Positions 11,059 through 23,361 of a DNA stretch of 64,000 nt are shown in pieces. The notes beneath the pieces were generated by a model. That model saw nothing but the letters and a program-made list of their open reading frames with translations. It ran no database searches and was not told where the DNA came from. Every line of letters starts with the position of its first letter. Within the stretch, counting starts at the first letter, position 1. The position numbers were made by a program, and so were the translations under genes. Source of the DNA: a virus; IMG/VR virus record IMGVR_UViG_3300041809_000801, positions 1-64,000 of that record; one strand, written 5' to 3'.

Positions 11059-11132
11059 TGGCTCCGTCGCAGGGATTCGAACCCCGATAAACAGATTCAA
11101 AGTCTGCTGTCCTACCGTTGAACGACGACGGA
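11059..11132 (-). tRNA. tRNA-Gln(UUG)
   Basis: Cloverleaf, loop CT-TTG-AA, U1-A72, G73, encoded CCA. Confidence 0.92.
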
Positions 11133-11133
11133 A

Positions 11134-11355
11134 TTAAATATTCCCAGCCATGAGTTGGTCTTCAGCGTCAGCCAGCTTCCTTACTTCTCGACACAGAAAC
11201 GACACATACTCGCGACAACTTTCAAATGACAGCGACTTTGCGATTTCTGCTCTTCCTGCCGAGGTCTTCAATGCCTGACCCACAGCCTCAAGACCGAGAC
11301 GATGAAACCGCTCCTGCCCCAACTCATTCAGCAATTCAGAAAGTTCCGACATCAA
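11134..11355 (-). CDS. Hypothetical protein
   Basis: 73 aa; coupled to the upstream small ORF. Confidence 0.5.
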   Translation of the reverse strand: MMSELSELLNELGQERFHRLGLEAVGQALKTSAGRAEIAKSLSFESCREYVSFLCREVRKLADAEDQLMAGNI

Positions 11356-11531
11356 CCCTCTACGATGGCGACCGACGCCTTCTTCCGGGCCTTCCCAATT
11401 TCAACCGTCACAGCCTTGCCCGTGTTCTCAGCCTCAAGGATAGCGTTGTACAATTTTGAACCGAAGGATAGGTCACCGTTCAATTCCAATATTGCACTTC
11501 TCGGTATCTCGACTTGAATTGTCTTCGCCAT
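11352..11531 (-). CDS. Hypothetical protein (59 aa, not in ORF track)
   Basis: MAKTIQVEIPRSAILELNGDLSFGSKLY...; fills the gap between tRNA genes. Confidence 0.5.
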   Translation of the reverse strand: MAKTIQVEIPRSAILELNGDLSFGSKLYNAILEAENTGKAVTVEIGKARKKASVAIVEG

Positions 11532-11551
11532 CTAATCTAATACTCCAAACT

Positions 11552-11640
11552 TGGCTAGGGAGGCCGGATTCGAACCGACAAGGAGCAATTACGCTCAACA
11601 GCTTCAAAGACTGCGGGGCCTACCAATGCCCGACTCCCCA
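11552..11640 (-). tRNA. tRNA-Gln(UUG) with long variable arm
   Basis: 89 nt; TGGGGAG/CTCCCTA-G-CCA, loop CT-TTG-AA, variable stem GAGCG-TAAT-TGCTC. Confidence 0.85.
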
Positions 11641-12148: not shown

Positions 12149-12745
12149 TCACTCCCAGTACGGTCCGATGTTTCGCCCGTACACTTCACTCAGTTTGGCA
12201 AAGTACGCTTTGGTCTTTATCTTACACATCCAATCGTCGCCCTTGCAGACAACCCCCTCCCACACTGGGTAGCGTCCTTCACGAATATCCTCGATGAACT
12301 GCTTGTTTAGATTACCCTCATACACTACTTCAGCAGAGTATGGTAGGTCTCCAAACACTTTAACGAACTGCCGGGGCTTCATCAACCCCCGCTTGAACAG
12401 GTACACATCAAAGAGACGAAGTTCTTTTGGCTCTCCTGCTATGTGCGACCCGGTGAAACTGCTCGGCCCGAAAAACTCAGTGAACGCCGTGATTCGCTGC
12501 GGCTGTCGCTCTACACTTTTCACGCGGCGGACAATTTCGTCGCCCATCTTCATGAAGAGTGGAATCGCCTCTCCGAAAATCTCGTCCGACTGGTCAAACA
12601 ACTGGGTACGAGTGCCGAACTTGAACCAGCCCTTCTTCGGGTTCCATTCCCATCGAAGGTTCGAACCGTCGTACTTATAGAAGGCGATGCACGGCTGACC
12701 AAACGGTGCCTTGGAGCTATTCTCGATGCTTGGGTACTGTTCCAT
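12149..12745 (-). CDS. Minimal ATP-dependent RNA ligase-like nucleotidyltransferase
   Basis: Motif I KYDGSN, III EFFG, IIIa FDV, IV EGVV, V KIK; about 198 aa. Confidence 0.75.
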   Translation of the reverse strand: MEQYPSIENSSKAPFGQPCIAFYKYDGSNLRWEWNPKKGWFKFGTRTQLFDQSDEIFGEAIPLFMKMGDEIVRRVKSVERQPQRITAFTEFFGPSSFTGSHIAGEPKELRLFDVYLFKRGLMKPRQFVKVFGDLPYSAEVVYEGNLNKQFIEDIREGRYPVWEGVVCKGDDWMCKIKTKAYFAKLSEVYGRNIGPYWE

Positions 12746-12796
12746 ACATCCCTTCAATCATTTTTGACTACCACTTCCCTAATCAGGGAGTGGTTT

Positions 12797-13191: not shown

Positions 13192-13267
13192 TGGAGCCGA
13201 CGACGGGAATCGGACCCGTGACCTCTTCATTACCAATGAAGTGCTCTACCAACTGAGCTACGTCGGC
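13192..13267 (-). tRNA. tRNA-Thr(GGU)
   Basis: Cloverleaf, loop TT-GGT-AA, T-loop variant TCCGATT, CCA. Confidence 0.92.
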
Positions 13268-13272
13268 TTTTT

Positions 13273-13473
13273 TTACAAAATACGAAAAGAACAAGAGGAA
13301 ACTTCATCATAGCCATCATCGTAATTCGTTTTGAAAACGTTCCAAACGCATCCATCAGAAGACTTAGCCTTGAAACCCGGAGCTATAACTGTTTGAGGAA
13401 GGGACAACATACCAGTAGGATGCTGACTCTTCAAAATGGAAACCACTATGGCTTTGTAATCCTCTGCTTTCAT
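13273..13473 (-). CDS. Hypothetical protein
   Basis: 66 aa, SD AAGGA. Confidence 0.5.
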   Translation of the reverse strand: MKAEDYKAIVVSILKSQHPTGMLSLPQTVIAPGFKAKSSDGCVWNVFKTNYDDGYDEVSSCSFRIL

Positions 13474-13486
13474 TTTTCCTTTCGAG

Positions 13487-13963
13487 CTACGGTAGCTTAA
13501 GGTGGGACTTAATTACGTGGATACAAAAGTCCGCACCCATCCAATCCCACTTGTCATTCGTCTCGTCGTTGTCCTGAAGGTCGCGAAAAATCTGCTCCAA
13601 CTTCTTAACAGCGTCTTCGACTGTCATGTGCTCCTCAACTGGAGGCACCCTGCAATACTGTCCGCCATGCGGAAAAGCGCAAGGCTGAGTTGCTGCCAAA
13701 TCTTCGGCGGTTGCCTGAGCCGCCCACTCATCAAACTCGCAAGCCAAACAAACCTTGCGACGGTCGGCCATTTGCTGCGCCCATGTTACGTAGTTCATTG
13801 AGAGGCACTCCCAACCAACATAGCTGGAATCCTCCCCGAAATCTTTTTCCTTCCTCGCACACTCAGTGCAGAAGGGGTGAGTACCGGCGAACTGCGTGTG
13901 ACGAATCCACGTGGCTTGCTTGCCACAACCGTTAATGCACGTTTCAACAGCAACAGTTGCCAT
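13487..13963 (-). CDS. Hypothetical Zn-finger-like protein
   Basis: 158 aa, CxxxC/CxxC pairs, SD AAGGTG. Confidence 0.55.
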   Translation of the reverse strand: MATVAVETCINGCGKQATWIRHTQFAGTHPFCTECARKEKDFGEDSSYVGWECLSMNYVTWAQQMADRRKVCLACEFDEWAAQATAEDLAATQPCAFPHGGQYCRVPPVEEHMTVEDAVKKLEQIFRDLQDNDETNDKWDWMGADFCIHVIKSHLKLP

Positions 13964-13981
13964 GAAATCACCTTCAAACTT

Positions 13982-14055
13982 TGGAGCCGATAACAGGAAT
14001 CAAACCTGTGTCTACTGCGTACCAAGCAGTTGCACTGCCACTATGCTATACCGGC
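13982..14055 (-). tRNA. tRNA-Thr(GGU), second divergent copy
   Basis: Loop TT-GGT-AC, T-loop TTTGATT, CCA. Confidence 0.85.
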
Positions 14056-14259
14056 TTACTTACAACACAATCCATTTGTATGTGCTCGAATCACTTCTTC
14101 GACCGTGCCCTGTTTCACAACCCCGTCATCAGTCCACGTCATCGCACCATCGTTCACAGTTGCAAAATGCTCCGGTCCGTGATCTTCATGCCCATCACAT
14201 TGAGTGCCCTGATACTCCGACTGGCAAAGTGCCATCCCAAACTCATCTTCTCTTTTCAC
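14056..14259 (-). CDS. Hypothetical protein
   Basis: 67 aa with SD GAGGAG upstream. Confidence 0.45.
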   Translation of the reverse strand: MKREDEFGMALCQSEYQGTQCDGHEDHGPEHFATVNDGAMTWTDDGVVKQGTVEEVIRAHTNGLCCK

Positions 14260-14402
14260 AAATGCTCCTCACACCACCAGCGGAAACGGTCGATGGGATA
14301 CGTCACTGGTTCCCACGCCGACTTAGGTAGAACATACCATAATGACTGGGCAAACCGATAGGGTACTCACCATCGCGTTCAATGTCATCTAATACCCAAC
14401 CT

Positions 14403-14478
14403 TGGAGCCGAGTAGGAGAATTGAACTCCTGACCTTCTCGTTACAAGTGAGACGCTCTACCAACTGAGCTAACCCGGC
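14403..14478 (-). tRNA. tRNA-Thr(UGU)
   Basis: Cloverleaf, loop CT-TGT-AA, CCA. Confidence 0.92.
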
Positions 14479-14484
14479 CAATCT

Positions 14485-14567
14485 TGGAGCCACGGGAGGG
14501 ACTCGAACCCCCGATGTTTGTATGACGGTTTACGATACCGTTGCAGTCGCCGCTGAGCCACCGTGGC
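14485..14567 (-). tRNA. tRNA-Thr(CGU), atypical (long variable loop, weak D stem)
   Basis: 83 nt; loop AT-CGT-AA; variable region CATACAAACATC; GCC/GGC-U-CCA acceptor. Confidence 0.8.
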
Positions 14568-14580
14568 AAAATCAAATTGT

Positions 14581-14663
14581 TGGAGCCGGTGAAGGGAATC
14601 GAACCCCCGGTGTTTGTATGGCAGTTTACAAAACTGCTGCTGTCGCCACTGAGCCACACCGGC
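14581..14663 (-). tRNA. tRNA-Thr(UGU), atypical (long variable loop, weak D stem)
   Basis: 83 nt; loop TT-TGT-AA; variable region CATACAAACACC. Confidence 0.8.
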
Positions 14664-14855: not shown

Positions 14856-14932
14856 TGGTGGGCGAAGGTGGGCTCGAACCACCGACCTCAGTCTTATCAG
14901 GACTGCGCTCTAACCAACTGAGCTATTCGCCC
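14856..14932 (-). tRNA. tRNA-Ile(GAU)
   Basis: Canonical cloverleaf, loop CT-GAT-AA, A73, CCA. Confidence 0.95.
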
Positions 14933-14933
14933 A

Positions 14934-15329
14934 TTACAACTCGAAATCTTTTGCCAAAGTCACTCTCTTGCTCTGATGGTTCTTTGAAGCTTCGAATCGC
15001 AAACTTATCGACCGTCGTTTTCCAAACACCACCATTGGCACGAGGTAGCATTTATCCAACTCAGTACAATAAGCAGCTATGTGGTCTACCTGCCCATGAT
15101 ACCAATTTGTGCCTTTAGTAGAGACACTTTTTGCATCAACCACTACAGCACCGCTAATGATACGCCCGGTCTTTACTTGGACTCTTTCAAAAGTCCCCTC
15201 GTTATCAATGACCAAATCGTATCGCTCATTATCTCCCCATGGGGTTAAAACCACATACCCCCGCTTCAACAGAGCAGCCAATACAGCCGCTTCACTCACA
15301 TTACCTACACGCTTTGTATCTTGAGGCAT
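14934..15329 (-). CDS. PD-(D/E)XK homing endonuclease (I-Ssp6803I-like)
   Basis: TKRVGNVSEAAVLAALLKRGY.V..PWGDNERYDLV...RVQVKTGR; ATG 15329. Confidence 0.85.
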   Translation of the reverse strand: MPQDTKRVGNVSEAAVLAALLKRGYVVLTPWGDNERYDLVIDNEGTFERVQVKTGRIISGAVVVDAKSVSTKGTNWYHGQVDHIAAYCTELDKCYLVPMVVFGKRRSISLRFEASKNHQSKRVTLAKDFEL

Positions 15330-15349
15330 GTGGTCTAATACCCTAAACT

Positions 15350-15423
15350 TGGTGCGCCTTATAGGAGTCGAACCCATGTCTTCCGCTAATCGGGCGGAGG
15401 CTCTACCGTTAAGCAAAAGGCGC
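15350..15423 (-). tRNA. Atypical tRNA with GAU anticodon (C33, U37)
   Basis: Intact stems and CCA; anticodon loop CC-GAT-TA. Confidence 0.7.
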
Positions 15424-15658
15424 AAAAACTTTTCGACACTTGCACTCGGCGACGTTATCTCCGCCGAACCCGAAACAATCGGGGTTAGTTGCTATCAAAC
15501 TCTCGGCTTCCACTGGAGGAGGCGTCTCTTTCAACTTCTCCTGCAAATCTTCAAGCGCCGAGATTGCTTTCTTGTACGTGGATATTAAAGCACCCGCGTA
15601 CCCAAATCCGTCTCCGCGTACTGCATTTTTCTCAGCCCGGAGTTGACTGATAACTGCA

Positions 15659-16045
15659 TCAATGTCCATCGCTGTCCAACGCCTTCCGGGCTGCGGTGTC
15701 AAACTTCTCCGCATTCCAAAACCCTGCAAAAGAACCGCTGGAAGTGATGAGCAATTCACCTTTCGAAACTTTCAAACTGATGCCGAGGCTATCAACTCTT
15801 TGCTCCTCCCAATCTCGCGTCGAAGGCACATGTCCACAATCTTTCATGATGTGAACGATTGCTGCCTTGCGACCGAGAACCCCAAACAATTTTTCTGCCT
15901 CATCAACCCCACGTGAGTGGTGTCGCCAAAATCTGTGCAACGGACCAAACCGTTTGAATCCCGCATCCAACCAATGATTCACTTCTTCGCATCGGTCGCC
16001 GAGGATGCGTTCACAATCTCGACAATGCTCATCGAATGACGCCAA
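15659..16045 (-). CDS. His-rich hypothetical protein (DUF6915-like)
   Basis: HWLD...HRFWRHHSRG..EAEKLFG...HIMKDCGHVPS..DW; TTG 16045 after GGGGGAG. Confidence 0.55.
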   Translation of the reverse strand: MASFDEHCRDCERILGDRCEEVNHWLDAGFKRFGPLHRFWRHHSRGVDEAEKLFGVLGRKAAIVHIMKDCGHVPSTRDWEEQRVDSLGISLKVSKGELLITSSGSFAGFWNAEKFDTAARKALDSDGH

Positions 16046-16054
16046 AACTCCCCC

Positions 16055-16086
16055 TAAAAACACTAAAGCCGCCTGTTCAGGCGGCT
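16055..16086 (-). terminator. Attenuator terminator hairpin
   Basis: AGCCGCCT-GAAC-AGGCGGCT followed by TTAGTGTTTTT. Confidence 0.8.
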
Positions 16087-16110
16087 CATCGCATCTCAGA
16101 TTGAATCTTT

Positions 16111-16191
16111 TCAGATTCGTACGAAAACACGAGGCCGCAGAACGCTGGTTTGCGTTGTAGTGGTAATTCGTGTTTGGTTTGTGAGACGCAT
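16111..16191 (-). CDS. Thr-rich leader peptide MRLTNQTRITTTTQTSVLRPRVFVRI
   Basis: SD AAGGA 7 nt upstream; 7 Thr codons including tandem ACC ACT ACA ACG; followed by antiterminator/terminator. Confidence 0.8.
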   Translation of the reverse strand: MRLTNQTRITTTTQTSVLRPRVFVRI

Positions 16192-16230
16192 TGATGATTC
16201 CTTCTTGGTACCTTTCAGAAACTTAATGCT

Positions 16231-16406
16231 TGGTCGGTGGGGACAGACGTTAGCCTACCCCCACCGATGGAGCCGGTCGAATAGTTTCCCACTCTCCCGG
16301 CTTGGCCCCCGACCCAAGGTTGCCCTCAGGCCGGAGTTGGCACCCGGCTTAAGGTTTCCCTCGAACCGGGTATGGTGGGTGACTCAAGGTTTCCCTCTAA
16401 TCACCC
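16231..16406 (-). ncRNA. Tandem array of five NCCA-ended tRNA-minihelix-like hairpins
   Basis: Units 16373-16406, 16338-16371, 16303-16336, 16268-16301 (34 nt each) and 16231-16266 (36 nt), each separated by 1 nt. Confidence 0.85.
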
Positions 16407-16414
16407 TCATCTAC

Positions 16415-16443
16415 ATAATACCAGCGAAAGTTGGTTTTTGCAA
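16415..16443 (-). promoter_or_regulatory. sigma70-type promoter
   Basis: TTGCAA-17 bp-TATTAT; predicted start 2-3 nt before the first minihelix. Confidence 0.8.
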
Positions 16444-16541
16444 CTAACTTGTGAATTATTTTTCCACAGCTTTATGGAAAAATGTCTGTGGGGTGAGTAT
16501 CCCACCCCCTAATCGGACATGAAACCAGACATCGTGTCCGA

Positions 16542-17820: not shown

Positions 17821-17898
17821 TGGTGCGTCCTGAGGGAGTCGAACCCCCGACCTTCTCTGCGTCAAAGAGTTGCTCTAAACCCACTGAGCTAAGGACGC
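17821..17898 (-). tRNA. tRNA-Val(GAC)
   Basis: Cloverleaf, loop TT-GAC-GC, A73, CCA. Confidence 0.85.
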
Positions 17899-17916
17899 AG
17901 GTACAGCATATCATAA

Positions 17917-17994
17917 TGGTGCCCCCGGTGGGACTCGAACCCACGACTCGCAGAAATTTAGAGTTTCCGGTTCTACCAACTGAACTACAGGGGC
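17917..17994 (-). tRNA. Amber-suppressor tRNA (CUA)
   Basis: GGAAA-CT-CTA-AA-TTTCT anticodon arm, canonical D/T arms, 7-nt variable loop, A73, CCA. Confidence 0.88.
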
Positions 17995-22886: not shown

Positions 22887-23034
22887 CTTTTGACTCCTTG
22901 GTCTCGGTCAAATCTACGCGAAAATATGTGGCCTCATCCTCCGTCCAATGCACAGACATGGACGGGTAGTGAGAATTCTCAAGTCGCGTTCTTGTTCCAA
23001 CTCTACGAGACATATTGACGCCCAAAAATCGGTA

Positions 23035-23326
23035 GGGGTCGCTTTTGGCGACCCCATCCTAGTGAACTATTCTTTCACAGAGTCAGCCCACGAACTCCGA
23101 GTAGCTGGTTATTAAGCAGCCGCTGCAAGTGCCATTGGTTCGGCAGATGTTATTTTTCCCACCATATAACGGATAGCGAGAGAACGAGTTGTTGACGGCT
23201 TCCTTCCAAAACATCTGTCGAAATCTTGGCGGGCCCATAGATTTTATTGGTGGACCCGGTGGGAATCAAACCCACGTCCAAATGCTGGTTAGAACGTCTT
23301 CAGCCTCTTGCGAAGCACACAACCAT
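23035..23326 (-). ncRNA. ssrA: Circularly permuted (two-piece) tmRNA
   Basis: Acceptor piece ends GTGGG-TTTGATT-CCCAC-CGGGTCC-ACCA at 23248; 11-nt spacer; coding piece starts GGGCCCG at 23236 (G3.U70); tag AEPMALAAAA** at 23144-23109; outer ends approximate. Confidence 0.88.
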
Positions 23327-23332
23327 ATACCA

Positions 23333-23361
23333 ATAATACCCGTAGTCGGGAAATTCTGCAA
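23333..23361 (-). promoter_or_regulatory. sigma70-type promoter for tmRNA
   Basis: TTGCAG-17 bp-TATTAT. Confidence 0.7.

What the first reader, a model, noticed from the sequence alone, without database searches (positions are those of the whole stretch)
16055..16205. Ribosome-stalling attenuator controlling a phage tRNA operon and sampling all four Thr codons
Seen: SD AAGGA plus a 26-codon ORF (16191-16111) MRLTNQTRITTTTQTSVLRPRVFVRI with the run ATT ACC ACT ACA ACG CAA ACC. Mutually exclusive pairings exist: 1:2 AAACACGA (16175-16168)/TCGTGTTT (16132-16125); 2:3 GCGGC(C)TCGT (16138-16129)/ATGAGCCGC (16089-16081); 3:4 terminator stem 16086-16067 with a U-rich tail. Established: this is the layout of thrL/trpL-type attenuators, normally upstream of amino-acid biosynthesis genes. 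Here the downstream co-oriented genes are 2 tRNA-Ile, 5 tRNA-Thr, an RNA ligase and 2 tRNA-Gln, matching the Thr/Ile/Gln codons of the sensor stretch. Inference: the phage senses loss of any functional Thr isoacceptor (for example by a host anticodon nuclease) and switches on replacement tRNAs and repair.
Basis: partly seen in the sequence, partly recalled or inferred. Interest (0 to 1): 0.92.

Follow-up and report, generated by a model that had tools for sequence, protein, structure and literature searches.

The report
Thr-codon attenuator gating phage tRNAs
A large uncultured wetland phage puts a tiny translated "test" gene rich in Thr, Ile and Gln codons, plus a switchable transcription stop, in front of its Ile, Thr and Gln tRNA genes, so it probably makes those tRNAs only when ribosomes read those codons slowly; I found no paper describing this control for tRNA genes.

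Summary
On the minus strand there is an SD (AAGGA), a 26-codon ORF (16191-16111) with the run ATT ACC ACT ACA ACG CAA ACC, and a strong intrinsic terminator (16087-16066 plus U-tract). The terminator ends 8 nt before the next gene.

Six distinct homologues in related contigs keep the ORF, its frame (indels of 3 nt), the Thr run and the terminator. Folding with a ribosome masked on the Thr codons gives an antiterminator. Untranslated RNA, or a ribosome at the stop codon, leaves the terminator arm free (0 of 200 shuffles reach the window's switch score).

The strongest evidence is that codon-matched leaders recur independently:
- L003: Q/T/I/C run before Ile, Thr, Gln, Cys tRNAs.
- L069: K/T/V run before Val, Thr, Lys.
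- L068: N/R/M/V/I run before Asn, Met, Val, Ile, Arg.
- The same genome at 87266: V/A/G run before Val, Gly, Ala.
- A 231-kb relative: V/A/G/E/D/C and L/Y leaders.

Best reading: a ribosome-mediated attenuator that closes a feedback loop on phage tRNA supply. Nothing is experimental. The anticodon-nuclease trigger and the "repair" link are guesses. The first gated gene is DUF6915, not a tRNA. This scan has noted the same principle on at least six other phage genomes.

The parts
16415..16443 (-). Sigma-70-like promoter TTGCAA-17-TATTAT with TG extension. It is the only predicted promoter in front of the leader and the tRNA operon.
   Evidence: Promoter scan. The same promoter is conserved upstream in L030, L037, L004, L055 and L008.
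16235..16405 (-). Five tandem tetraloop hairpins, each followed by NCCA (a minihelix array). This is the 5' part of the same transcript.
Evidence: Fold of 16412-16050 gives z = -9.2 with five perfect hairpins. Metatranscriptome contigs begin at 16336, the 5' end of hairpin 3.
16199..16203 (-). Shine-Dalgarno AAGGA, 7 nt before the ATG.
   Evidence: AAGGA is kept in L004, L030 and L037. It is weak (GGA) in L055 and L008.
16111..16191 (-). Leader ORF of 26 codons plus TGA.
   Evidence: Six distinct homologues have the same start and frame, with 3-nt indels only (CAG; ACA, an extra Thr) in the conserved part.
16147..16167 (-). Regulatory codon run ATT ACC ACT ACA ACG CAA ACC (I T T T T Q T). Each codon has a cognate phage tRNA downstream.
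   Evidence: The only synonymous changes among homologues are ACC/ACT swaps, and both codons are read by tRNA-Thr(GGU).
16182..16189 (-). 5' strand of helix P1. It pairs with 16098-16091 and sequesters the start-codon region in the finished, untranslated leader.
   Evidence: MFE folds of all six homologues.
16168..16175 (-). Segment 1 (AAACACGA). It pairs with segment 2.
16122..16138 (-). Segment 2. It pairs with segment 1 (16132-16125) or with segment 3 as the antiterminator.
   Evidence: Ribosome-mask folds. Switch test.
16081..16099 (-). Segment 3. It pairs with the P1 5' strand and the terminator 3' arm (off state), or with segment 2 (on state). It includes 6 nt of the terminator 5' arm.
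16053..16087 (-). Intrinsic terminator: stem-loop 16087-16066 and U-rich tail to 16053.
   Evidence: It is conserved in all homologues, with one compensatory pair change.
15659..16045 (-). First gated gene: a DUF6915 protein (TTG start at 16045, SD GGGGGAG overlapping the terminator tail).
   Evidence: Pfam PF21866 E 6e-8. 35 homologues. It is often embedded in phage tRNA clusters. No fold match.
14856..15423 (-). tRNA-Ile(GAU) 15423-15350, a PD-(D/E)XK_5 gene, and tRNA-Ile(GAU) 14932-14856.
13192..14663 (-). Five tRNA-Thr genes: UGU 14663-14581, CGU 14567-14485, UGU 14478-14403, GGU 14055-13982, GGU 13267-13192. Small ORFs lie between them.
11059..11640 (-). Two tRNA-Gln(UUG) genes: 11640-11552 and 11132-11059.

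Best explanation
This is a ribosome-mediated (leader-peptide) transcription attenuator whose regulatory codons are the ones read by the phage tRNAs encoded behind it.

Proposed mechanism:
- Transcription starts at the promoter at 16443-16415 and passes the hairpin array. A ribosome loads on the 26-codon leader.
- If Ile-, Thr- and Gln-tRNAs are plentiful, the ribosome runs to the TGA at 16113-16111. It covers the 3' part of segment 2 and the start of segment 3. The terminator (16087-16066) then forms and transcription ends about 16055.
- If any of these charged tRNAs is scarce, the ribosome stalls on ATT ACC ACT ACA ACG CAA (16167-16150). It masks segment 1, so segment 2 (16138-16122) pairs with segment 3 (16099-16081).
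- That pairing ties up the terminator's 5' arm. RNA polymerase then reads on into DUF6915, 2 tRNA-Ile, 5 tRNA-Thr and 2 tRNA-Gln.
- The new tRNAs relieve the stall, closing a negative feedback loop on tRNA supply.
- Without translation, 1:2 and P1 form and the terminator forms.

Shown: the sequence parts, their conservation, the alternative folds, the codon/tRNA match, and the lack of room for a promoter behind the terminator.

Inferred: translation of the leader, stalling, read-through control, co-transcription of all nine tRNAs, and the physiological trigger.
For: (1) Anatomy is exact.

(2) Six distinct homologues (window, L055, L008, L004, L030, L037) keep the ATG, frame and Thr run. Indels in the conserved part are 3 nt. 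The Leu codon varies synonymously (CTC, CTT, CTG) and the C-terminal peptide is free to vary. All of this fits a translated leader.

(3) Three-state folding:
- With a ribosome on the Thr run, the pre-terminator RNA folds into an antiterminator of -24 to -32 kcal/mol (z -2.2 to -5.2).
- With a ribosome at the stop codon, the terminator arm is free.
- In untranslated RNA the arm is free (P paired 0.04) in the window, L004 and L030, and 0.06 in L003.
- Switch score against shuffles: 0/200 (window, L004, L030), 2/200 (L037), 1/200 (L003).

(4) Codon/tRNA match. The run I-T-T-T-T-Q-T matches downstream Ile, Thr and Gln tRNAs. Their anticodons GAU, GGU, UGU, CGU and UUG cover all seven codons.

(5) Independent analogues, each with a terminator and an antiterminator in the stalled state. 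L077 and L078, from the relative G001, were not folded; there only the leader ORF and the terminator were located:
- L003: 14-codon Q/T/I/C run before Ile, Thr x3, Gln, Cys.
- L069/L070: 14-codon K/T/V run before Val, Thr, Lys.
- L068: N-R-R-M-N-R-V-I-R before Asn, Met, Val, Ile, Arg.
- Own genome at 87266: 13-codon V/A/G run before Val, Gly, Ala, Gly.
- Relative G001: V/A/G/E/D/C leader before Val, Gly, Ala, Cys, Asp, Glu tRNAs, and an L/Y leader before Tyr x2, Leu x5.

(6) Statistics:
- For each leader the true tRNA amino-acid set is the best, or tied best, of all same-size sets.
- Among 478 small ORFs upstream of tRNAs, 9 have a matched run of 7 or more, against 0.22 expected with random sets.

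(7) The terminator ends 8 nt before DUF6915 here, and 3-26 nt before the first tRNA in the analogues. The genes can therefore be reached only by read-through.

(8) No sigma-70-like promoter is predicted on this strand between 16045 and 13335.

(9) One 456-nt metatranscriptome contig (run X6, 15881-16336, no mismatch) bridges the terminator.
Against: - No experiment: translation, stalling and conditional termination are all inferred.
- Thermodynamically the terminator still wins in the stalled state once fully transcribed. Antitermination has to be kinetic, as it is in trp.
- The antiterminator overlaps only 6 of 9 nt of the terminator's 5' arm in the window.
- Arm pairing in the stalled state alone is not exceptional for the window (16-19% of shuffles reach it). 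Only the switch score and the energy are.
- L055 and L008 lack a convincing SD and a dominant 1:2 state.
- The six homologues are too alike in the core to give covariation: 0-1 compensatory pairs.
- Nearly all third codon positions of the core are invariant. RNA-level constraint could explain that as well as codon identity could.
- DUF6915, of unknown function, is the first gated gene.
- A promoter-like site at 13335-13306 could feed the last Thr and the Gln tRNAs independently.
- RNA-library contigs may contain DNA.
Confidence: 0.72

Rival explanations
1. The terminator simply ends a small-RNA gene (the hairpin array plus trailer). The short ORF is conserved for RNA-structure reasons or encodes a small peptide. 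Downstream genes are expressed by constitutive leak or from unrecognised promoters, so no codon-dependent control exists.
For: - The transcript begins with a very stable five-hairpin array (z = -9.2).
- The core of the ORF is conserved at nearly every nucleotide, third positions included.
- An invariant AAACAC / GUGUUU complementarity links the ORF to the terminator tail.
- In two RNA runs, contigs over the array and leader exist as pieces separate from the downstream ones.
Against: - Analogous leader-plus-terminator units without any hairpin array stand before other tRNA sets: own genome at 87266, L003, L068, L069, L077, L078.
- In each of them the amino-acid set changes with the tRNA set (statistics).
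- Indels are in threes and the C-terminal peptide is unconstrained.
- Peptide chemistry differs widely between leaders (polar Thr-rich, basic, hydrophobic), which argues against a shared peptide function.
- There is no room for a promoter between the terminator and the genes.
Confidence: 0.1
2. The attenuator works as described, but its natural signal is general translation or amino-acid status, or the timing of infection (for example decay of host tRNAs or charging late in infection). It is not loss of a specific isoacceptor to a host defence nuclease.
For: - A leader-peptide attenuator reads the rate of decoding. It cannot tell missing tRNA from uncharged tRNA (established for trp, his and thr attenuators).
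- Every tRNA cluster examined in this lineage has its own leader. That looks like general supply control rather than a response to one nuclease.
Against: - The leaders mirror the tRNA sets, not biosynthetic pathways.
- Synonymous codons of several isoacceptors are included: all four Thr codons here, in L003 and in L069; both Asn and four Arg codons in L068. That fits isoacceptor-level sensing.
- No evidence separates the triggers.
Confidence: 0.3
3. A translation-independent RNA switch: the leader RNA binds a tRNA (T-box-like, with the Thr codons acting as specifiers) or a protein, and that binding decides between terminator and antiterminator.
For: - Strong nucleotide-level conservation of the core.
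- NCCA-ended minihelices lie on the same transcript.
- The start codon is sequestered in helix P1 in the finished fold.
Against: - No T-box or any other Rfam family is matched, even at E up to 10.
- The ORF, its frame and its stop position relative to the terminator are kept. Indels are 3 nt.
- Unrelated analogues share only the coding logic, not sequence or fold.
Confidence: 0.05

Closest known systems
thrL attenuator of the E. coli thrABC operon, and the multivalent ilvL/ivbL leaders
   Same: - A short leader ORF with a run of Thr and Ile codons.
- Segments 1-4 with mutually exclusive 1:2, 2:3 and 3:4 pairings.
- An intrinsic terminator directly before the first gene.
- Several amino acids sensed by one leader.
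   Different: - The gated genes are tRNA genes (and DUF6915), not amino-acid biosynthesis enzymes.
- The leader mirrors the tRNA set (Ile, Thr, Gln), not a pathway.
- No sequence or structure match to Rfam Thr_leader.
- It is phage-encoded.
- It is preceded on the same transcript by a minihelix array.
pheM leader of the E. coli pheST operon (attenuation of an aminoacyl-tRNA synthetase gene; from my own knowledge, not checked in a paper here)
   Same: Leader-peptide attenuation applied to a component of the translation apparatus. The output acts back on the supply of charged tRNA.
   Different: pheM gates a synthetase, not the tRNAs themselves. It senses a single amino acid and is chromosomal.
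T-box riboswitches
   Same: A terminator/antiterminator decision that reports the state of a specific tRNA and controls genes of the translation supply chain.
   Different: The T-box binds the tRNA directly without a ribosome and has conserved Stem I and T-box motifs. None is found here. This element has a conserved translated ORF instead.
Codon-matched leader attenuators before phage tRNA clusters, noted earlier in this scan on other genomes (e1-5968842, e1-5890974, e1-5996116, e1-5766206, e1-5759923, e1-5402871)
   Same: The same principle: a tiny ORF written in the amino acids of the tRNAs behind it, plus a switchable terminator, at the head of each tRNA block.
   Different: - Those are AI notes on other DNA, and I did not check them.
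- Here a protein gene (DUF6915) lies between the terminator and the tRNAs.
- Here the leader shares its transcript with a minihelix array.

Membership tests
Leader-peptide (ribosome-mediated) transcription attenuators | A short ORF with a start codon and ribosome-binding site in the 5' leader of the regulated genes | tested here: met
   ORF 16191-16111 with AAGGA 7 nt upstream. The ORF and its frame are kept in six homologues. The SD is weak in L055 and L008.
Leader-peptide (ribosome-mediated) transcription attenuators | A cluster of regulatory codons for the sensed amino acid(s) | tested here: met
   I-T-T-T-T-Q-T at 16167-16147. It is conserved, with an extra Thr codon in L008.
Leader-peptide (ribosome-mediated) transcription attenuators | An intrinsic terminator between the leader ORF and the first gated gene | tested here: met
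   Stem 16087-16066 plus U-rich tail, ending 8 nt before the DUF6915 start.
Leader-peptide (ribosome-mediated) transcription attenuators | An antiterminator pairing that competes with the terminator and is favoured when a ribosome sits on the regulatory codons, but not at the stop codon | tested here: met
   Ribosome-mask folds. Switch score 0.60, reached by 0 of 200 shuffles. The same holds in L004, L030, L037 and L003; it is not significant in L055 and L008.
Leader-peptide (ribosome-mediated) transcription attenuators | Read-through shown to depend on leader translation and on the supply of the cognate charged tRNA | not testable with these tools
   This needs reporter or in vitro assays. 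The only related datum is an RNA-library contig that bridges the terminator.
Leader-peptide (ribosome-mediated) transcription attenuators | Gated genes are amino-acid biosynthesis or transport genes (the classical members) | tested here: not met
   The gated genes are DUF6915, tRNA-Ile x2, tRNA-Thr x5 and tRNA-Gln x2. I therefore file it as a new variant, not a classical member.
Rfam Thr_leader and other Rfam leader families | A match to the family covariance model | tested here: not met
   No leader family is listed at E up to 1 over 16 kb, or at E up to 10 over 16040-16450.
T-box riboswitch | A match to the T-box covariance model (Stem I, specifier loop, T-box sequence) | tested here: not met
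   No T-box match.
Codon-matched leader attenuators of phage tRNA clusters (a kind noted by this scan, unpublished as far as I could find) | The amino-acid set of the leader's codon run equals the set of the tRNAs encoded behind the terminator | tested here: met
   - Window: run I/T/Q against tRNAs Ile, Thr, Gln; tied best with 2 others among 1140 sets (3 of 1140 reach its run).
- L003, L069, L068 and own genome 87266: the unique best set.
- Nine matched runs of 7 or more among 478 ORFs, against 0.22 expected.

The most novel reading that the evidence does not exclude
Every tRNA block of this phage lineage is under closed-loop control that resolves individual isoacceptors. Each codon in a leader run reports on one phage-supplied isoacceptor: here ACC/ACT for GGU, ACA for UGU, ACG for CGU, ATT for GAU and CAA for UUG. 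Loss of any single host tRNA species, for instance to a tRNA-cleaving defence, would then switch on exactly the block that replaces it. In this operon, DUF6915 and the NCCA minihelix array on the same transcript would be further parts of that tRNA-pool surveillance system.
Probability: 0.3. Interest if true: 0.92.

Novelty: new variant of a known kind. Interest (0 to 1): 0.8.

Why it matters
Why phages carry tRNA genes, and how they express them, has been debated for decades. The main ideas are codon compensation, replacement of decaying host tRNAs, and escape from tRNA-cleaving defences.

A leader-peptide attenuator written in the codons of the tRNAs it gates would mean the phage measures decoding speed codon by codon and supplies tRNAs on demand. 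That would be a direct feedback on the tRNA pool. It is not described for any tRNA gene in the papers I could search.

It makes the question testable with simple leader-reporter constructs. It extends a textbook mechanism to a new class of target. It also gives a sequence rule, leader codon set equals tRNA set, that can be used to define tRNA transcription units in uncultured phages.

Tried and rejected
Relatives came from the search for related loci instead.
- Megablast of the region against GenBank phages: no match.
- Single-protein scan of viral contigs: nothing.
- Exact and degenerate DNA patterns from the leader found only the four relatives already known, plus chance hits in coding regions.
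- RNAalifold on the six homologues gave almost no compensatory changes (0 and 1 pairs). The core is too conserved, and the variable part shifts register, so covariation neither supports nor refutes the folds.
- P(arm paired) in the stalled state alone was not exceptional for the window. I replaced it with the switch score.
- Metatranscriptome contigs: contig depths before and after the terminator differ (34 and 18 against 2-4), and two contigs stop at 16147 and 16141. Contigs cannot rank depth or show RNA ends, so I do not use this. Parts without cover mean nothing.
- DUF6915 structure (pLDDT 84.6): no Foldseek match at E <= 0.001, and best VIA Z 4.3. Its function is left unknown.
- RNA-ligase identity of 12149-12757: nothing in Pfam or NCBIfam.
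- The promoter motif of this operon (GTATTATGTA) does not recur inside the operon.
- A chance ORF is rejected because of conservation in six relatives.

Full report
**Where the window comes from.** The window is the first 64 kb of an 88.9-kb IMG/VR virus contig, rated about 29% complete. It is therefore a fragment of a large phage. The runs holding this stretch are recorded as wetland or peat metagenomes. GenBank phages hold nothing close.

**Observation.**
- AAGGA lies at 16203-16199, the ATG at 16191 and the TGA at 16113-16111. The 26-codon ORF begins MRLTNQTRITTTTQTS.
- The codon run ATT ACC ACT ACA ACG CAA ACC lies at 16167-16147.
- The terminator stem-loop at 16087-16066 has 9 pairs, 6 of them G-C. 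With its tail TAGTGTTTTT it is the best terminator-like site in 14 kb.
- ARAGORN finds tRNA-Ile(GAU) x2, tRNA-Thr (UGU, CGU, UGU, GGU, GGU) and tRNA-Gln(UUG) x2 downstream on the same strand.
- First correction: the gene directly after the terminator is a DUF6915 protein gene. Its TTG start is at 16045, and its SD overlaps the end of the U-tract (Pfam E 6e-8).
- Second correction: the 'RNA ligase' (12149-12757) is only a partial PHROG 548 match. Pfam and NCBIfam give no support.

**Transcription unit.**
- Upstream there is a terminator for the preceding gene (16505-16488).
- A sigma-70-like promoter, TTGCAA-17-TATTAT, lies at 16443-16415.
- Five very stable tetraloop hairpins follow, each ending in NCCA. 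The fold of 16412-16050 has z = -9.2.
- The leader follows on the same transcript.
- No further promoter-like site is predicted on this strand until 13335-13306, and that site lies inside a small ORF.

**Relatives.**
- An alignment of DUF6915 homologues was used to fetch 9 viral and 47 metagenome loci.
- Six distinct versions of the same leader exist: window, L055, L008, L004, L030 and L037.
- All six have the promoter, a hairpin array, the ORF, the terminator, and Ile, Thr and Gln tRNAs downstream where the contig reaches that far.
- The ORF starts MRL in all six and keeps QTRITTTTQTS (L008 carries a fifth Thr).
- The two indels in the conserved part are 3 nt: CAG, and ACA, which adds a Thr codon.
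- The Leu codon varies synonymously. The C-terminal third is free in sequence and length, 26-29 codons.
- The only synonymous changes in the run are ACC/ACT swaps, and one isoacceptor (GGU) reads both.
- All four Thr codons are always present. Chance for four codons under this phage's even Thr usage is 0.093, so this point is only suggestive.

**Alternative folds.**
- Untranslated leaders fold into helix P1 (16189-16182 with 16098-16091, hiding the start region), the 1:2 hairpin, a small hairpin over the stop codon, and the terminator.
- I masked the RNA up to 13 nt past a codon in the A site and folded what is transcribed before the terminator's 3' arm.
- A ribosome on the Thr run then gives a long antiterminator, 16138-16122 with 16099-16081, at -24.9 kcal/mol.
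- A ribosome at the stop codon leaves the terminator's 5' arm free.
- The same holds in every homologue, with partly different sequences. L004 has a 17-pair helix with two small internal loops.
- I defined a switch score: P(arm paired) stalled minus P(arm paired) untranslated.

| Leader | Switch score | Shuffles reaching it |
|---|---|---|
| Window | 0.60 | 0 of 200 |
| L004 | 0.84 | 0 of 200 |
| L030 | 0.64 | 0 of 200 |
| L037 | 0.39 | 2 of 200 |
| L003 | 0.62 | 1 of 200 |
| L055 | 0.05 | not significant |
| L008 | 0.00 | not significant |

- The stalled-state energy is z = -5.2 for the window.
- Once the whole terminator is transcribed it is the thermodynamic winner even in the stalled state. 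The switch must therefore be kinetic, as in the classical trp attenuator.
- Covariation is uninformative, with 0-1 compensatory pairs.

**The decisive evidence is recurrence with co-variation.** Each unit below has an ORF followed by a terminator just before the listed tRNAs.

| Locus | Leader run | tRNAs behind the terminator |
|---|---|---|
| L003 (unrelated leader sequence, also before DUF6915) | QTTQICTTITCTQT | Ile, Thr (CGU, UGU, GGU), Gln, Cys |
| L069/L070 (AT-rich phage) | KTKTVKTVKVVKTT | Val, Thr, Lys |
| L068 | NRRMNRVIR | Asn, Met, Val, Ile, Arg |
| Own genome, 87266-87388 (outside the window) | VAAVAVVGVVAAA, then E, G, C, D | Val(UAC), Gly(GCC), Ala(UGC), Gly(UCC), then the contig ends |
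| Relative G001 (231 kb), homologous leader | V/A/G/E/D/C-rich | Val, Gly, Ala, Gly, Cys, Ala, Asp x2, Val, Ala x2, Glu x2, Gly |
| Relative G001, third leader | LGLSLYYLL | Tyr x2, Leu x5 |

- In L069 the segment-2 sequence is a copy of the terminator's 3' arm.
- The gap from the terminator to the first tRNA is 3-26 nt in all these units.
- In the analogues that I folded (L003, L068, L069 and own-genome 87266), the stalled state gives an antiterminator and the stop-codon state gives the terminator. L077 and L078 were not folded.
- For each leader the real tRNA amino-acid set is the best, or tied best, of all sets of that size at explaining its longest run.
- Among 478 distinct small ORFs lying upstream of tRNAs, 9 have a matched run of 7 or more. 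Random sets give 0.22 expected.

**What this says.**
- A strong terminator stands between the only promoter and the genes, so the terminator must be conditional.
- The condition is written in the codons that the gated tRNAs read.
- The simplest mechanism is classical ribosome-mediated attenuation, used as negative feedback on tRNA supply.
- In the window's family a DUF6915 gene sits between the terminator and the tRNAs, and is gated too.
- DUF6915 is embedded in tRNA clusters in many other phage contigs.
- Its predicted, mostly helical structure (pLDDT 84.6) matches no solved fold.

**RNA data.**
- Four wetland metatranscriptome runs hold parts of the stretch as assembled contigs.
- One exact 456-nt contig (15881-16336) bridges the terminator.
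- Contigs in two runs begin at 16336, the first base of the third hairpin.
- Contigs cannot show ends or levels, and DNA may be present in these libraries. I count this only as compatible.

**Known families.**
- Rfam has no match to Thr_leader, any other leader, or T-box.
- The element works like thrL or ilvL, but it is not a sequence member of them, and its targets are not biosynthetic genes.
- Five full-text searches found no paper on leader-peptide attenuation of tRNA genes in phages.
- This scan's own notebook lists the same principle on at least six other phage genomes. Those notes are unchecked, and I did not use them as evidence.

**Verdict.**
- The attenuator reading, and the link to the tRNAs, are well supported by comparative and folding evidence, but not by experiment.
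- The defence trigger and the repair link remain conjecture.

Noticed in passing
L079:1218-1470 (G000:C1 87217-87469, outside the window): A second codon-matched leader in the same genome. A promoter TTGCAA-17-TATTAA is followed by a 40-codon ORF (87266-87388) with a V/A/G run. A 12-pair terminator (87412-87441) follows, then tRNA-Val(UAC), Gly(GCC), Ala(UGC) and Gly(UCC). The ORF has no clear SD.
   Followed up: yes
window 16235-16405 (-): Five tandem hairpins with GNRA-type loops lie on the same transcript as the leader. Each is followed by a discriminator-like base and CCA. The array is conserved in relatives with diverging stems. RNA-library contigs of two runs start at 16336, the first base of hairpin 3. 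Another reader has already noted the array (e1-6073622).
   Followed up: partly
window 15659-16045 (-); loci L005, L007, L052, L058, L061, L068: DUF6915 (conserved His, Cys and Asp residues, mostly helical) sits inside or at the head of tRNA clusters in many unrelated phage contigs. No fold match was found. It may be a tRNA-related factor of unknown function.
   Followed up: partly
L079:1041-1176 (G000:C1 87040-87175): A roughly 135-nt strongly paired RNA lies just after a promoter-like site with TATTATG at 87024. It ends in a T-run and sits upstream of the second leader. Its identity is unknown.
   Followed up: no
window 16170-16176 and 16058-16063 (-): An invariant complementarity links CAAACAC in segment 1 of the leader to GUGUUU inside the terminator's U-rich tail. 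It is present in all six homologues. RNAalifold pairs them, but no variation exists to test the pairing.
   Followed up: partly
window 14485-14663 and 11552-11640 (-): Two tRNA-Thr genes of 83 nt and one tRNA-Gln of 89 nt have long extra arms. The tRNA-Gln scores best against the tRNA-Sec model, at 42.6 bits, below that family's threshold. Such arms are unusual for these identities.
   Followed up: no
window 17821-17994 and 23021-23340 (-): A tRNA with a CUA (amber-reading) anticodon lies next to tRNA-Val(GAC). A permuted (two-piece type) tmRNA gene lies further upstream. Relatives also carry one or two CUA tRNAs upstream of the leader.
   Followed up: no
window 14934-15425 (-): A PD-(D/E)XK_5 endonuclease gene (Pfam E 9e-36) is wedged between the two tRNA-Ile genes. 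It is possibly a mobile or homing-type nuclease.
   Followed up: no
L078:10121-10246 (G001:C1 about 195620-195745): A short ORF (ATG at L078:10173) with a single Phe codon overlaps a weak terminator just before tRNA-Phe in the 231-kb relative. It is a much weaker candidate leader than the others.
   Followed up: partly
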